Below, one piece after another: positions 23,426 to 28,644 of a stretch of 64,000 bases of DNA. The notes under the pieces were generated by a model. The model was not told the origin of the DNA, did no database searches, and saw only the letters and a program-made list of their open reading frames with translations. Position numbers and translations under genes: made by a program. Positions within the stretch are counted from its first letter, which is position 1; each line of letters begins with the position of its first letter. This DNA comes from Alphaproteobacteria bacterium (GTDB lineage: Bacteria; Pseudomonadota; Alphaproteobacteria; UBA828): positions 256,001-320,000 of the forward strand of contig CAXXVO010000005.1 in the NCBI GenBank assembly GCA_963422645.2, read 5' to 3'.

Positions 23426-23545
23426 TCGCGCCGTCCAATGGCATTCATTTGGCGCGAAGATTGTTCCGGGGTTTTTTTGGTGGTGTCGTAACGAGTTGAT
23501 TTCTTGTGTGGATTGTCGGTCTCGGCGTTTCCCGCACGAGGGGGA

Positions 23546-23574
23546 TTGACCGGCGGCGTGTGCTTTGGCACACT
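23546..23574 (+). promoter_or_regulatory. Putative sigma70 promoter of the IS4-type transposase
   Basis: TTGACC-17 bp-CACACT, 31 bp upstream of the ATG at 23606. Confidence 0.5.
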
Positions 23575-23605
23575 GTGGCTGTCCCCCTGTCAGTGGAGCC
23601 GGCCC

Positions 23606-24323
23606 ATGGACCCCCGCATCACCGCGCTGAAGTCGACGACCTTTTTCGGCAGACGTCTGACCCGCCGGCAGATTGCCGACATCCAGGAGACGGTGGCGCT
23701 GTTTCCGGCGATCAGCCGCAACGAGCTCGGGCACACGATCTGCGAGCATTTGAACTGGCGCGCGCCGAGCGGGCGGAACCGTGTCGCGGTCTGCCTGCGG
23801 ATGCTGGAGGAGTTGGAGCGGCTGGGCATCCTGACCCTGCCGGCGCGGGACGAGGCGCAGGTGCGGGGGCCGCAGGAGGCGATGGCCCGGAGCGAGCGGA
23901 CGGCGCCGGCCGCGGCGATCGCGGAGGACCTGGCCGCGCTGATGCCGCTGCGCCTGTCGATTGCGGCGGGCAAGGAGGAGGGCGGGCTGTGGAACGAGTT
24001 CGTCGCGCGCCACCACTATCTCGGGCTGCATCGTCTGGTCGGCGCGCATCTGCGCTATTTTCTCCTGGACCGCCACGGGCGGCCTCTGGGCTGCCTTCTG
24101 TTTGCCCGGGCGTCGCGCGCGGTGCCCTGCCGCGACGAGTGGATCGGGTGGCCGGCGGAAGGCTTCCGCAAGCACCTCGATCTGGTCGTGGGTCACACGC
24201 GTTTCCTGATCTTTCCCTGGGTCCGGGTCGACAACCTGGCGTCGAAAGCGCTGTCGATGGCGCTGCGCCAGCTGCCCGGCGACTGGGAGGCGCGCTTCGG
24301 AGCGCGCCCGGTTCTGGTGGAGA
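23606..24323 (+). pseudogene. DUF4338-DDE transposase, 5' part (HTH plus DUF4338-like domain)
   Basis: SRNELGHTICEHLNW, LWNEFVARHHYLG, RDEWIGW, RFLIFPWVRVDNLAS and RPVLVE| ending at the insertion core. Confidence 0.88.
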
Positions 24324-24512
24324 TGAAGGCTTCATAATGCTTCTCCGTTGTGCAGGTGGGCGGGCGTTTCTACCGCATTGATAGAAAAGGCGGTTTGGAT
24401 TCCGTTGTTGCCGCCGCGGCGACCTTTACATCGTGCCGGACGTGATTTTCCAGTATCGCACGTTGGAGGTGCGGATCTGCATCGGGCGTTTTGCCTGACG
24501 GTCCGGGCATGG

Positions 24513-26693
24513 TCACCCCCCATCACCGTTGAGCCCGCGCAGCAGCGGCAGTTCGTCCTCGACCGGCAAACGCACATACAGTCCGCGCGTCTTGCCGCGG
24601 GTCACATGGCAGCTGTCCAGCCTGCCCGCCTTGATCCGTTCCCAGACCGTCTGCCGCGTGACACCCAGACGATCCATTGCCACAGCGAGGGGAACAAACC
24701 CCTCCGGAGGCGCCTCACGAAAGCGCTCGCGCAAGGTCGGGGTCATCCGGATCCGAAGAGGAGCACCTTCGATATCGGGCTGGGCAACCGGAACCAGCCC
24801 CTCGCGGATCCAGCGATAGATGGTGTCATCCGAGACTCCGATCTCCTTCGCCACATCGGCAACGCCCATGAGCACCGGCTCGTCCCCGTCGGGCTGGTAG
24901 GGCGCAATGCCATGGCGGCGACGCAGGCTGCCAACAAGCTCGGCCGTGAAATCCAGACCCCGTGCTGTGCGCCGTCCCTGGCGGGTGAGAACCTTCGCGG
25001 TCTCCCGGTCGTTGTAAAAGCATGACAGCTTGCGCACGAGCTCGACCGTGCTGCGCTCATCGCGCCGGGGTGTCGGAGAGCCCGCGAGCATCGGCAAAGT
25101 GATCTCGTCGATCTGCCCGCCACGCCAGCGCAATGTTGCCATGATCTCACGCTCCTGTCGCGCAAGCTCGATCGTCACCTCGTCGAGGAGGCAGGCGAGC
25201 AGGCGCTTGCGCTCGCGCATGGTCGTCGACGACGCCCCCCAGACCTGCGACAGGCGCGCGCCGAGACCCTCGAAAACCGCCGGGGCAGGGGCCGCGGGCT
25301 GACGCGCCCGTGCCGCCTCAAGCGCTTCCTGTGCAGCCTTCTCGGCGCGAAGCGCCTTCTCCCACTCGCGCTCCAGCGTTGCCGCAATCAGACGGTTGTC
25401 GGGATCGACCTGCTTGTAGCGCCGCTCGGCAAGCCGCGCCTCGTACCGGCAGTGCTCAAGATCCAGCTCCCAACGGCGCAACGCGCGCAGGCCGCGTTCA
25501 GCAACATCACAAGCCGCCTGCCGGGCCGCCTCCACCCCCGCCGGCGTGACCGCATCGAGAAACAGACGGGCAACTTCCGCATCAACGCGCTTGCCGCCTG
25601 TCGACCAACAACCGCCGCGCCGGCGCGCAGCATCGCGCTTGCGGCACTCATACCCCCAGCCCGTCTTGCTGTAGTAGACGGTCATCGGCAATCCGCAGCC
25701 GCCGCAGACCGCGAGACCCTGGAGCAGAGCCGACCCTTCCCGCGCCGCGCCGCGGGCTCCGTCCGGAGCCATGTGGTTGCGGGCCAGCTGCTCCTGTACT
25801 TCAAGCCATTCTGCCCAACTGACATATCCCTCATGCTTCTCCGGCTGAAGAATATCCCAGCGCTCCTGGACCGGCCGCAGCGGCGCACCGTGACCAACGC
25901 CGCGTTTGAAGCCGTAGGCATAGGCGCCGCCCATCGCCGGGTTGGTGAGGATGCGGTACACCCGTTCATAGCGCGCCGGGCCCCATTCCAATGCTGCCCC
26001 CGGGTGCCGGCGAGAGGGAACATCCTCGCCCGCCTCACGCAGCAGCATCGTCGCCTGGCGGGCCGAACCGGCTTGCCGAAAACGCGCAAAGACCGTTGCA
26101 ATCGCCGCCTGAACCCGGGCATCCGGATCCTTCCGCAAAGTCGAGCCATCCCGCACAAATCCGATCGGAACGCGCGAGTACAACTCGCCACGAAGCGCCT
26201 TGTTCCGCTTTCCGCCCTCCATCCGGGCGCGAATAAGAGACAGCTCAGCGGCGCTCACGGTTCCCTTGATCCCCAGGACAAGGGAGTCGTCGTCCCGGCT
26301 CGGGCAGTAGATGTGGCAGTCCTCAACCAGAACCGTGTCGTGCCTGCGACATAGATCGAGAAGCTGAAACCATTCCATCGTGTTCCTGGCGAGCCGCGAA
26401 ACCTCAATCCCGAAGATGCCCCCGACATGGTCCCGGGCGATCAGGTCGCACATCTCCCGAAAGCCGCCACGCTCGCCGCGCGCCTTCTCGCTTGCGCTCT
26501 CGCCAAGATCGGCGTCGATCGTCCGTATCCGCTCGGCCGGCCAGCCAATCTCCCGGGCACGCTCGCCAAGCGCGTATTGGCGCAGCTGCGATTCCTGGTG
26601 CGCGTTCACTTGCAAGGGTGTCGACTGGCGAACGTAGACAACTGCAAGACGCTCAAGATGACGCTGGGTGATCTTCGACGGATCGACCGTCAT
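24513..26693 (-). CDS. Large serine recombinase with zinc ribbon and C-terminal HTH domains
   Basis: VYVRQST (catalytic Ser), DLGES, EVSRLAR, LTNPAMGGAY, CGGCG...YEC...C, VDPDNRLIAATLEREW and two terminal HTH-like segments; GGGAGG RBS. Confidence 0.95.
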   Translation of the reverse strand: MTVDPSKITQRHLERLAVVYVRQSTPLQVNAHQESQLRQYALGERAREIGWPAERIRTIDADLGESASEKARGERGGFREMCDLIARDHVGGIFGIEVSRLARNTMEWFQLLDLCRRHDTVLVEDCHIYCPSRDDDSLVLGIKGTVSAAELSLIRARMEGGKRNKALRGELYSRVPIGFVRDGSTLRKDPDARVQAAIATVFARFRQAGSARQATMLLREAGEDVPSRRHPGAALEWGPARYERVYRILTNPAMGGAYAYGFKRGVGHGAPLRPVQERWDILQPEKHEGYVSWAEWLEVQEQLARNHMAPDGARGAAREGSALLQGLAVCGGCGLPMTVYYSKTGWGYECRKRDAARRRGGCWSTGGKRVDAEVARLFLDAVTPAGVEAARQAACDVAERGLRALRRWELDLEHCRYEARLAERRYKQVDPDNRLIAATLEREWEKALRAEKAAQEALEAARARQPAAPAPAVFEGLGARLSQVWGASSTTMRERKRLLACLLDEVTIELARQEREIMATLRWRGGQIDEITLPMLAGSPTPRRDERSTVELVRKLSCFYNDRETAKVLTRQGRRTARGLDFTAELVGSLRRRHGIAPYQPDGDEPVLMGVADVAKEIGVSDDTIYRWIREGLVPVAQPDIEGAPLRIRMTPTLRERFREAPPEGFVPLAVAMDRLGVTRQTVWERIKAGRLDSCHVTRGKTRGLYVRLPVEDELPLLRGLNGDGG

Positions 26694-26844
26694 CGGCCGC
26701 CTCCCGATCCGCAATCCGAACCATCAGATCGGCCAGACCCTGCACGACGCGATCCCGGTCCGGAGCCGGAAACGCCAGCCACCGGTCCCGGCGCTCCTCC
26801 CACTCCATCAGCGCGATCAGCGCCAACTCCTGCTCCGCATCCAT
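26653..26844 (-). CDS. Small helical hypothetical protein upstream of the recombinase (candidate accessory or directionality factor)
   Basis: 63-aa ORF with WLAFPAPDRDRVVQGLADLM, overlapping the recombinase start. Confidence 0.55.
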   Translation of the reverse strand: MDAEQELALIALMEWEERRDRWLAFPAPDRDRVVQGLADLMVRIADREAADDGRSVEDHPASS

Positions 26845-27148
26845 CGCGCCTGAGTTCCCTCTCATCAAGGTCATTCAGAAGATTAAGGAGGGTGAGGAAA
26901 TCAGACAACTCTCCGATCAGGCGTGGTGCATCCTCGGGACGGGCTCCAAGGCTCGTCCATGCCGCTGGTATCCAACAACAGCTGCCGTCCGGCATCCGAA
27001 CCTTCAGAGTCCGGCCCCCGTAACCTCCTTTGCGCCGATCGAGAATCTCGATCGCCTCACCGTCGAAAGGATGCTTGTAGCGTCGAATGCGAACGGGCTC
27101 AGGAGCCTCGGAAGCCTGCAAGATAGTAGTCTGTGACGTTCGTGGAGA
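26690..27148 (-). CDS. DUF5372 (Y4bD-like) small protein whose start codon lies at the opposite end of the element (24335)
   Basis: HPFDGEAIEIL...PDGSCCWIPAAWTSL motif; no RBS-ATG inside the integrated right end; in frame with ATG 24335 after circularisation. Confidence 0.7.
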   Translation of the reverse strand, partial: SPRTSQTTILQASEAPEPVRIRRYKHPFDGEAIEILDRRKGGYGGRTLKVRMPDGSCCWIPAAWTSLGARPEDAPRLIGELSDFLTLLNLLNDLDERELRRDGCGAGVGADRADGVGGAPGPVAGVSGSGPGSRRAGSGRSDGSDCGSGGGR

Positions 27149-28644
27149 CCTTCGTGGACCCCAGCCTCTTCGACGGCGCCTGCTACCGCGCGGCCAACTG
27201 GCGCTGTCTCGGCGAGACCGGGGGCGGCAAGGGCAAGACCCGCAAAAGCGTCTACGTCTACCCGCTGACGCCGGACTTCCGCTCGATCCTGCTCGAAGGC
27301 CCGCGGCCGGCGCGGCGCGGGAACAGGACACGGCCGGCAGCGCTGGCGCCGGACGATCCCTTCGTGGCGCTGTGGCAGGACCTGATCGGCGCACTGGCGG
27401 CGGTGGCCGCCGATCACGACCGGGTGTGGCAGAGCCGCCGGCGGGTCCTCGACACCCTTCTCGTCATGCTCTTCATCTTCCGGCTGGCGTTCTCGAACGG
27501 CCGCGCGGGCTACGCCACGACGCTGGCCGGGCTGTGGGAGCAGTGCCGGGTCCTGGGCGTCGCACTGCCGCAGCCGGCGCCGGTCTCGGCCTCGGCGATG
27601 TGCATGGCGCGGGCCAAGGTCGACGAGGCGGTGTTCAAGACGCTGCACGCCGAGATCCTCAAGCGCGCCGACGGCCCGGCCTGGAAGGGCCACCGCGTGT
27701 TCGCGGTCGACGGCTCCAAGCTCAACCTGCCGCGGCCGCTGCTCAAGGCCGGCTACCGCACGCCCTCCGAGGCGGCCCACTACCCGCAGGGCCTGCTGAG
27801 TTGCCTCTACCGGCTGCACGCGAACATCCCGGTGGACTTCGACCTGGTCGCGCACGGCGACGAAAGAAGGGCCGCCCTCGCCCACCTCAAGGCGCTCTCG
27901 GCCAACGACATCGTGGTCTATGACCGCGGCTACTACTCTTGGGAGATGCTGCACGCCCATGTCGCCCGCGGCCTGCACCCCGTGTTCCGGATCAAGAAGA
28001 AGGCAGGCGCCGCCCTCGACGCCTTCATCGCCGACGGCCGCACGGACGCGCCGATCACCGTCGCTCCCGGAAAGGACACCCTGAGAAAGCTGCGCCGCAA
28101 GACGCCGCACGTCGACGCCACCCCGCTGCGCCTGCGACTGGTCCGCTACCGCATCGGCAGCACGGTCTTCATCCTCGCCACCACCCTCCTCGACCCCAAG
28201 GCCTGGAGCGTCGCGGAACTGGCCGAGCTCTATCACGCGCGCTGGGGAATCGAGGAACTCTACAAGACCTCGAAACAGGCCATGGCCGTCGAGGCCTTCC
28301 ACAGCCAGACCGAGCGCGGCGTCCGCCAGGAGCTCTTCGCCCACTTCAACCTCATCGCCATGACCCGGCTCTTCACCAACCGCAGCAACGCAAGCCTCGA
28401 CGCCGAGCGCCCTGCCGACGGCAAGCCGGCGATGAAAGCCAACTTCAGCAACGGCCTCGCCACCGTCGCGCGCAACCTCGAAGCGCTGCTGCTGCGCCAT
28501 ACGGCGATGGTCGCCGAAACCCTCAGCCATGTCCTCTCCTGCATCAACCAGGCGCGTCAGCGCCCGCACCCCGGCCGGTCCTGCGAACGCAGGTCGCGCA
28601 AACCCCGCGGCAAGTGGGCACGCGCAAAGCGGGCCGTCGCCTGA
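27149..28644 (+). pseudogene. DUF4338-DDE transposase, 3' part (IS4-type DDE domain)
   Basis: TFVDP...GACYRAANW, FAVDGS, VYDRGY and YHARWGIEELYK (YREK signature). Confidence 0.9.

What the first reader, a model, noticed from the sequence alone, without database searches (positions are those of the whole stretch)
24317..27148. Serine-recombinase element whose first gene gains its start codon only on the excised circle
Seen: a 7-bp core GTGGAGA flanks the element (24317-24323 and 27142-27148). Joining the two ends (predicted attP) gives, on the minus strand, CGGAGAAGCATT-ATG AAG CCT TCA TCT CCA CGA ACG TCA CAG ACT..., which reads MKPSSPRTSQTTILQASEAPEPVRIRRYKHPFDG. The RBS (GGAG, 7-nt spacer) and ATG at 24335, at the element's far end, therefore fuse in frame to the DUF5372-like ORF at the other end, giving a 156-aa protein. 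Its stop overlaps the recombinase ATG (ATGA at 26693-26690). In the integrated state that ORF has only a TTG without an RBS. Inference: recombination acts as a genetic switch, so the DUF5372-like protein, and possibly translationally coupled recombinase, is made efficiently only from the circle. This parallels junction promoters in IS3/IS110 circles but acts at the start codon. I do not know of a description of this arrangement.
Basis: partly seen in the sequence, partly recalled or inferred. Interest (0 to 1): 0.92.

Follow-up and report, generated by a model that had tools for sequence, protein, structure and literature searches.

The report
Gene completed only on excised circle
A small mobile DNA element keeps the start signal of one gene at one end and the rest of that gene at the other, so the gene is whole only when the element has cut itself out as a circle, and the same design recurs in many distant relatives.

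Summary
The element is 2825 bp, with 11 copies and 13 empty sites in this genome. It encodes a DUF5372-like ORF, a 73-aa ORF and a 726-aa large serine recombinase (LSR). It sits in an IS transposase gene, and the crossover lies inside GAGA. Joining the ends puts GGAG, 7 nt and ATG in frame with the DUF5372-like ORF, giving 156 aa.

The same split occurs in relatives whose LSRs are only 35-40% identical. I read 15 genome lineages by eye whose ends were fixed by copy comparison or by a split target gene, and all 15 are in frame. Three more are in frame by architecture only, one is out of frame, and one is unresolved. In 37 of 37 metagenome contigs carrying both ends, the codon at the junction start position is ATG (29) or GTG (8). 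The 63-nt leader has no stop in 36 of 36 distinct sequences, whereas the other two frames have stops in 28 and 30 of 36.

No circle junction and no expression data were obtained. The function of DUF5372 remains inferred. This is a new variant of state-dependent expression in mobile elements.

The parts
24317..24323 (.). Left junction (attL) core GTGGAGA. The exchange lies within GAGA at 24320-24323. By the spacing seen in relatives, it is most likely the GA at 24320-24321.
   Evidence: 13 empty sites carry the 7-mer once; diverged targets have ATCGAGA here. Spacing rule.
24324..24512 (-). Element end downstream of the recombinase. It holds the outward-facing GGAG (24346-24343), a 7-nt spacer, ATG (24335-24333) and the four codons before the core. 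This is the predicted first mini-segment of the DUF5372-like gene, lying within the P' arm of attP.
   Evidence: The last 32 nt before the core are identical in L009 and L010, whereas the 190-nt spacer varies.
24513..26693 (-). Large serine recombinase, 726 aa, with a C-terminal excisionase-type HTH.
   Evidence: Resolvase 62 bits, Recombinase 41 bits, Zn_ribbon_recom 24.1 bits against cut-off 25.3, HTH_17 39.9 bits.
26653..26874 (-). 73-aa ORF in the +1 frame relative to the DUF5372 ORF, overlapping both neighbours. It is conserved as a protein in L031 (47% over 49 aa).
   Evidence: No Pfam or NCBIfam match.
26690..27148 (-). Body of the DUF5372-like ORF (152 codons) running from the right core. 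It has no ATG or GTG before the conserved His-Pro motif, and its stop overlaps the recombinase ATG.
27142..27148 (.). Right junction (attR) core GTGGAGA.
23504..24323 (+). Upstream half of the interrupted IS gene (DruA/DUF4338 domain), cut at the codons for LVE|TFVD.
   Evidence: the intact copy gives a 775-aa frame.
27142..28644 (+). Downstream half of the interrupted IS gene (rest of the DruA domain plus a DDE_Tnp_1 transposase domain).

Best explanation
This is a site-specific mobile element driven by a large serine recombinase, and its attP site lies inside the fifth and sixth codons of its own DUF5372-like gene. In the chromosome the gene is in two pieces. The Shine-Dalgarno sequence, start codon and first four codons sit at the end downstream of the recombinase and point outward. 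The rest of the gene sits 2.8 kb away at the other end without a start. Excision joins the two pieces, so the full 156-aa protein can be made only from the excised circle.

In three-gene elements like this one, the DUF5372 frame ends on the recombinase start codon. Translation from the circle should therefore also feed ribosomes into the recombinase gene. In the four-gene relatives the recombinase stop abuts the junction start codon, so DUF5372 becomes the last cistron of the recombinase operon only on the circle.

Shown here: the anatomy, the exact ends, the frame, and their conservation across distant relatives. Inferred: that a circle forms, that the junction start codon is used, and that DUF5372 (a small SH3-like barrel plus a helix) acts on the recombinase. 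My guess for that action is favouring re-integration or blocking renewed excision.
For: Ends and crossover: 11 copies, 13 empty sites, and three copies in diverged targets that confine the exchange to GAGA.

Frame in this element: the junction ORF is 156 aa and open.

Relatives in genomes (LSR 35-40% identical). I read 15 of 15 lineages as in frame where the ends were fixed by copy comparison or a split target gene. They are the window type; C-type elements in G042, G043, G238, G236, G045, G046 and G030; D in G038; E in G238 and G202; F in G402; H in G039 and G202; and I in G041. The distance from the start codon to the conserved His is 24, 25, 26, 28 or 30 codons in different families, so the length differences are whole codons. 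One pair (G038 against L109) differs by exactly one codon between the ATG and the crossover.

Metagenome contigs, C-type: 80 loci, of which 37 have both ends. In 37 of 37 the dinucleotide predicted from the mirrored arm motifs is the same at both ends (35 TT, 1 CA, 1 AA). This validates the crossover assignment without using the reading frame. The three bases after the P' motif are ATG in 29 and GTG in 8, and nothing else. A GGAGG- or GAGG-like sequence lies about 6 nt upstream in most. All 37 junction frames are open as far as the His-Pro motif.

Control: among 36 distinct 63-nt leaders (median pairwise identity 0.52, GC 0.53) the junction frame has 0 stops. Frames +1 and +2 have stops in 28 and 30 of 36. 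The reverse-strand frames have stops in 26, 12 and 22 of 36.

No universal internal start: 48 of 77 C-type loci have no in-frame ATG, GTG or TTG between the crossover and the His codon. L031, L028, L092, L049 and L016 have none either.

Coupling: the stop/start overlap with the recombinase occurs in 7 of 7 three-gene lineages. In C-type contigs the recombinase stop lies within 31 nt upstream to 11 nt downstream of the junction start in all but one of 38 tails listed, 37 with both junctions plus L121.

Gene callers find no stable start: in the 150 best of 4733 profile hits the domain begins anywhere from residue 1 to residue 121 of the called protein.

Binding to the recombinase has weak support only. 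The score is 0.55 against a best of 3 controls of 0.00. That mark was reached by 58 of 80 solved complexes and 2 of 110 mismatched pairs. At 0.60 or under it was reached by only 7 of those 80 and by both mismatches. The runs agree in at least 75% of contacts and the partner pLDDT is at least 61.
Against: No circle junction was seen. Contigs of three runs show only the empty-site joint, and the one raw-read run laid no reads. There are no RNA or protein data.

The leader is not conserved as a peptide and shows no codon periodicity. Mean entropy at codon positions 1, 2 and 3 is 0.77, 1.25 and 1.19 for codons 2-5, and 1.16, 1.23 and 1.22 for codons 7-24. Only openness, length and the start codon are kept.

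The start codon and the GGTG part of the SD-like sequence lie in the P' arm, next to the motif that mirrors the P arm. Part of their constancy may therefore serve recombinase binding.

Within the C-type the fixed spacing (45 nt from motif to His codon in 78 of 80 loci) is one inherited architecture, not 37 independent events.

Internal candidate starts exist: TTG in the window, and 29 of 77 C-type loci have one, 23 of them GTG at the Val two codons before His.

One lineage (L029, G046) is out of frame by one base with an early stop. In another (L046, G039) the end dinucleotides do not match.

No sigma-70-like promoter was found in the element (0 found, 0.3 expected).

The frames of the genome lineages were read by eye.

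Some database proteins begin with Met a few residues before the conserved leader motif. I could not see their context, so a start in cis in some lineages is not excluded.
Confidence: 0.75

Rival explanations
1. The DUF5372-like protein is made in the integrated state from an internal or non-canonical start (TTG here, GTG at the conserved Val in relatives). On this view the ATG at the far end is only part of the recombinase binding site or of an outward-reading leftover.
For: The window has an in-frame TTG. Among C-type loci, 29 of 77 have an in-frame canonical start, 23 of them GTG two codons before His. The ATG lies directly beside the mirrored P' motif. The leader shows no peptide conservation. 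Gene callers often start the protein at the domain.
Against: The TTG is not kept in L031. No canonical internal start exists in 48 of 77 C-type loci. The third base of the Val codon varies freely (entropy 1.82), so GTG is not favoured. The start position holds only ATG or GTG in 37 of 37 loci, while the mirrored position in the P arm does not read as a start codon. There are no stops in the junction frame, against 28 and 30 of 36 in the other frames. Indels across families are whole codons.
Confidence: 0.15
2. The in-frame junction is a by-product of a rigid attP geometry inherited from one ancestor, and it has no function in expression.
For: Spacing is fixed within the C-type (45 nt in 78 of 80 loci). 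The ATG lies 14 nt before the crossover in most families (and readings by eye).
Against: Geometry does not explain the absence of stops in one frame only. It does not explain the ATG/GTG alternation, the SD-like sequence, or the missing start on the gene body. Families differ in leader length by 1 to 6 whole codons, and one pair differs by one codon on the P' side.
Confidence: 0.07
3. The copies spread mainly as passengers of the IS they sit in and the recombinase is rarely active, so the junction form hardly ever exists.
For: Five copies sit in IS copies with flanks that are at least 99.9% identical. Five of 11 recombinase copies carry a stop, a frame break or lowered identity. No circle joint appears in contigs.
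Against: Copies also sit in three diverged target genes with the expected hybrid cores. This requires site-specific insertion. The 13 empty sites are exact.
Confidence: 0.03

Closest known systems
Tn4451/Tn4453 and the large resolvase TnpX (Lyras and Rood 2000)
   Same: It is a small element moved by a large serine recombinase through a circle. Joining the ends changes expression of an element gene.
   Different: There the junction forms a promoter for the recombinase itself. Here the junction assembles the coding sequence (SD, start codon and first codons) of an accessory gene. I saw only the title, in the reference list of PMC13023037. The content is recalled.
Circle-specific promoters of ICEs (Pcirc of ICEclc, P3'end of ICEKp1)
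   Same: A signal at one end drives a gene at the other end only after excision.
   Different: Those elements use tyrosine integrases and act at the level of transcription, with the gene itself intact in both states. I saw the Discussion passage of PMC13023037.
Integration-dependent immunity of mycobacteriophage BPs
   Same: attP lies inside a coding sequence, so the integrated and free forms encode different products.
   Different: There the 3' end of a repressor gene is cut off on integration, and the shorter prophage form is the active one. Here the 5' end with the start codon is separated, so the integrated form should give no product. I saw the abstract of PMC4557955.
Junction promoters of IS circles (IS3, IS30, IS110 families)
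   Same: The abutted ends of a circle create an expression signal that boosts the recombination enzyme.
   Different: Those are promoter halves, not a split reading frame, and they use DDE or DEDD enzymes. This is recalled. The IS110/IS1111 paper appeared only in a search listing and was not read.

Membership tests
Large serine recombinase elements | N-terminal resolvase catalytic domain followed by a recombinase domain and a zinc ribbon | tested here: met
   PF00239 62 bits and PF07508 41 bits, both over their cut-offs. PF13408 scores 24.1 bits, just under its 25.3 cut-off. The relative L019 scores 38.6 bits for it.
Large serine recombinase elements | Conservative exchange at a short core without target duplication, with exact empty sites | tested here: met
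   13 empty sites carry the core once. Hybrid cores in diverged targets confine the exchange to 4 bp. In relatives it narrows to 2 bp.
Large serine recombinase elements | An excised circular form carrying attP | tested here: inconclusive
   assembled contigs show no back-joint, and the raw-read run laid no reads.
DUF5372 (PF17342) | Score over the Pfam gathering threshold | tested here: not met
   18.3 bits against 25. Relatives L019 (74.6 bits) and G238 (64.4 bits) pass. The window ORF joins them only through the profile built here (94 bits).
DUF5372 (PF17342) | Conserved His-Pro-x-x-Gly motif and a small beta barrel followed by a helix | tested here: met
   H26, P27 and G30 are invariant in 14 sequences; the model has four strands and a C-terminal helix, mean pLDDT 72.8.
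Circle-junction promoter systems (Tn4451 type) | -35 and -10 boxes brought together by the junction | tested here: not met
   no sigma-70-like site anywhere in 24200-27300. That scan cannot see a promoter split across the ends, and promoters of this organism may differ.
Integration-dependent gene products (BPs type) | attP core inside a coding sequence of the element | tested here: met
   the crossover falls in codons 5-6 of the junction ORF.

The most novel reading that the evidence does not exclude
A large and so far undescribed superfamily of serine-recombinase elements uses a translation-level sensor of its own topology. The profile hits number 4733 protein clusters. On this reading every member splits its DUF5372 gene across attP, so the protein exists only while the element is a free circle. 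There it binds the recombinase and commits it to re-integration. The elements also live as hyperparasites of other mobile DNA, because each lineage aims at a catalytic or otherwise invariant motif of a transposase, an IS helper gene or ssb.
Probability: 0.45. Interest if true: 0.9.

Novelty: new variant of a known kind. Interest (0 to 1): 0.82.

Why it matters
Mobile elements must behave differently when integrated and when free. The known solutions act on transcription (junction promoters) or on the 3' end of a gene (the BPs repressor). A start codon and ribosome site held at the opposite end of the element would be a third and very economical solution. It gives an all-or-none switch that needs no regulator.

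It would also give DUF5372, a family with no literature (0 papers), a first testable role as a circle-specific partner of large serine recombinases. That matters for directionality control of enzymes widely used in genome engineering.

In practice it explains why gene callers give these proteins erratic starts. It also shows that annotation of integrated elements can miss genes that exist only across the ends.

Tried and rejected
Reads. One search found 12 runs holding the stretch, none on record as RNA (no RNA holder listed). Laying X1, X2 and X5 (assembled contigs) showed the empty-site joint 24316 to 27142 and no back-joint. Contigs drop rare forms. The raw-read run X13 laid 0 reads, so it was no test.

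Promoter scan: 0 sites.

A word-based protein search with the window ORF gave no hit.

I looked for a natural joined form. Contig L109 has a recombinase gene directly upstream of a DUF5372 gene. On reading, it proved to be two different elements about 130 bp apart, not a circle. None of the 80 metagenome contigs has a terminal overlap of 15 bases or more. The one viral contig (L174) is an integrated copy.

The far end of the L031 type was sought in G033 (62% complete) and not found with that query.

Ends were missing or the recombinase was truncated in L031, L028, L062, L022, L088, L055 and the remnant at G000 C8:564671. These were not counted.

My first reading that the G046 element L021 lacks DUF5372 was wrong. 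The gene lies further upstream in the sister copies.

A fold search of the model against solved structures gave nothing significant (best E 0.059, SH3- and Tudor-like barrels).

Literature: the searches found no description of DUF5372, of these elements, or of a start codon supplied across a circle junction. Supplements are closed. Catalogues of recombinases and att sites, such as the preprint 10.1101/2021.11.05.467528 (seen only as a listing), may list such elements in tables I could not see.
Full report
What is there. The window carries a 2825-bp insertion in the coding sequence of an IS transposase gene that combines a DruA/DUF4338 domain with a DDE_Tnp_1 domain. On the minus strand the insertion holds three genes. 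The first is an ORF of 152 codons running in from the right end, with a weak DUF5372 match (E 0.0023, 18.3 bits, cut-off 25). The second is a 73-aa ORF in the +1 frame. The third is a 726-aa large serine recombinase with resolvase, recombinase and zinc-ribbon regions and a C-terminal excisionase-type HTH. The first ORF ends on the recombinase start codon (ATGA).

Ends. The window's genome holds 11 copies of the element and one remnant. It also holds 13 copies of the same IS without the element, each with GTGGAGA once at exactly this place. Three copies sit in diverged relatives of the target gene. There the left junction reads ATCGAGA and the right junction GTGGAGA. GTG is therefore element sequence and the exchange lies within GAGA. 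Six recombinase copies are intact and identical, and five carry a stop, a frame break or 98% identity.

The junction in this element. The end downstream of the recombinase carries, reading outward on the minus strand, GGAG, a 7-nt spacer, ATG and four codons before the core. A script joined the ends by slicing. It gave an open frame of 156 aa that continues into the DUF5372-like ORF. Inside the element, the only canonical in-frame start ahead of the conserved domain is a TTG with no SD.

Close relatives. Two genome records (L009, L010; recombinase 87-88% identical) are inserted at the same motif of DruA-type genes. The last 32 nt before the core are unchanged in them, while the 190-nt spacer varies. 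This is too close to tell an att site from a coding signal. L031 is more informative (same genus, DUF ORF 43% identical, same target motif). It has no ATG, GTG or TTG between the element edge and the conserved domain, and the window's TTG is CCG there. Its other end is not on the contig, and I did not find it in that 62%-complete genome.

Distant relatives in genomes. Searches of the order (49 genomes) and of 401 genomes of the class found recombinases 35-40% identical, next to DUF5372-like ORFs, often in several copies per genome. A profile built from eleven of these ORFs hit almost every recombinase locus fetched. I fixed the ends without reference to reading frames. I compared copies with different flanks, or I read the interrupted target gene on both sides. 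I then read the frame by eye.

All 15 lineages resolved in this way are in frame:
- the window type;
- the four-gene C-type in G042, G043, G238, G236, G045, G046 and G030;
- D in G038;
- E in G238 and G202;
- F in G402;
- H in G039 and G202;
- I in G041.

Three more are in frame, but only by the shared architecture: G039 L047/48, G041 L056, and the first element on L109. One (L029 in G046) is out of frame by one base with an early stop. Its two sister lineages are in frame. In one (L046) the dinucleotides at the two ends disagree, so I could not resolve it. Seven loci lack an end. The leader from start codon to the conserved His is 24, 25, 26, 28 or 30 codons long in different families. G038 and L109 differ by exactly one codon between the ATG and the crossover.

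Metagenome test. A scan with an alignment of C-type proteins returned 80 loci. In 78 of 80 the P-arm motif lies 45 nt before the His codon. In C-type elements the two arms carry mirrored motifs: ACTGCAC-like in the P arm and GTGCAGT-like in the P' arm. Each lies 14 nt from the exchange. This assigns the crossover without using any reading frame.

In 37 of 37 contigs that hold both ends, the assigned dinucleotides at the two ends are identical. They are TT in 35, CA in one and AA in one. The three bases that follow the P' motif are ATG in 29 and GTG in 8. Their entropy is 0.76, 0 and 0 bits. A GGAGG- or GAGG-like sequence precedes them. All 37 junction frames are open as far as the His-Pro motif.

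As a control I took the 36 distinct 63-nt leaders (median pairwise identity 0.52, GC 0.53). The junction frame has no stop in any of them. The other two frames have stops in 28 and 30 of 36, and the three reverse-strand frames in 26, 12 and 22. Forty-eight of 77 C-type loci have no canonical in-frame start inside the element before His. Of the 29 that do, 23 have GTG at a conserved Val whose third base varies freely.

Against the reading. The leader is not conserved as a peptide and shows no third-position excess of change. What is kept is openness, length and the start codon. The start codon and part of the SD-like sequence lie next to the P' recognition motif, so recombinase binding may contribute to their constancy. 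The mirrored position in the P arm, however, does not read as a start codon. Within the C-type the frame is one inherited architecture. I found no circle junction: contigs of three runs show only the empty site, and the raw-read run gave no reads. I have no expression data, and no sigma-70-like promoter was found. Some database proteins begin with Met a few residues before the leader motif. Their context could not be seen.

Gene order and coupling. In the three-gene families the DUF5372 frame runs through a low-complexity tail, overlapping the small ORF in another frame. It stops on the recombinase start codon in 7 of 7 lineages: ATGA in six and TAATG in one. In the C-type the order is DUF5372, an AT-rich gap, an HTH protein, a small ORF, then the recombinase. 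The recombinase stop lies within 31 nt upstream to 11 nt downstream of the junction start in all but one of the 38 listed tails, 37 with both junctions plus L121. On a circle, DUF5372 would thus be the last cistron of the recombinase operon. In the chromosome that transcript runs out into the target instead.

What DUF5372 may do. The family is large: 4733 representative clusters at E up to 0.001 and 887 at up to 1e-10. No paper in the library names it. The model is a four-strand barrel plus a C-terminal helix (pLDDT 72.8), with only insignificant SH3- and Tudor-like matches. A complex prediction with the recombinase gave weak support. The score was 0.55 and the best of 3 controls 0.00. That mark was reached by 58 of 80 solved complexes and 2 of 110 mismatched pairs. 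At 0.60 or under it was reached by only 7 of the 80 and by both mismatches. The runs agree in at least 75% of contacts and the partner pLDDT is at least 61. I therefore commit, with modest odds, to a circle-specific recombinase partner that favours re-integration. The topology switch itself I hold at about 0.75.

Comparison with what is known. The closest cases are of three kinds. First, the junction promoter of Tn4451 for its large resolvase (title seen in a reference list; content recalled). Second, the circle-specific promoters of ICEclc and ICEKp1 (passage). Third, the attP-in-gene arrangement of phage BPs, which truncates a repressor at its 3' end (abstract). The present case differs in that the ribosome site, start codon and first codons are what is separated. 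It also differs in that this is conserved across a whole superfamily. I rate it a new variant of a known kind and high in interest. It is directly testable with reporter fusions and junction PCR.

Noticed in passing
window 24317-24323 with 27142-27148; L019, L081, L092, L093, L049, L028, L054 and others: Each lineage of these elements is inserted in a conserved motif of another mobile element's gene. The window type hits LVE|TFVD of DruA-DDE transposases. The C-type hits the NGK|VER region of rve-type DDE transposases or a CxxC-rich gene. Other lineages hit the N-terminal region of IS110 transposases, two sites in IS66 tnpB and one in the IS66 transposase, and the Walker A loop of istB. The elements look like specialised parasites of insertion sequences.
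   Followed up: partly
L029 3560-4460 and L054 9975-10870 (sense strand as printed): The H-type elements interrupt an ssb gene. Downstream of the recombinase, on the opposite strand, they carry a full-length ssb gene of their own with its terminator. This appears to be a replacement for the gene they split.
   Followed up: partly
window 26653-26874 (minus strand): The 73-aa ORF overlaps the tail of the DUF5372 frame in the +1 frame and overlaps the recombinase start. It is conserved as a protein in L031, and similar small helical ORFs stand at the same place in L028, L092 and L062. Which of the two overlapping frames is translated there is open.
   Followed up: partly
L019 729-1187: The extra gene of the C-type elements matches the N-terminal DNA-binding part of IS630 and IS481 transposases (HTH_32 45.8 bits; NCBIfam IS630 59 bits, below its cut-off). 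These same elements target rve-type transposase genes.
   Followed up: no
G000, many contigs: A repeat of about 930 bp occurs in more than 80 copies in the window's genome. Several copies of the recombinase element are themselves interrupted by other insertions. The genome is heavily loaded with mobile DNA.
   Followed up: no
L109 1-3964: Two different DUF5372-recombinase elements (one D-like, one C-type) lie about 130 bp apart on one metagenome contig.
   Followed up: partly
window 24513-24870 (recombinase residues about 608-726): The recombinase carries a C-terminal excisionase/MerR-type HTH (HTH_17 39.9 bits). The same feature is present in the C-type recombinase of L019.
   Followed up: no
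G000 C8:564671-564889: A second, decayed DUF5372 remnant lies in an istB Walker A site of the same genome, with no recombinase nearby.
   Followed up: partly
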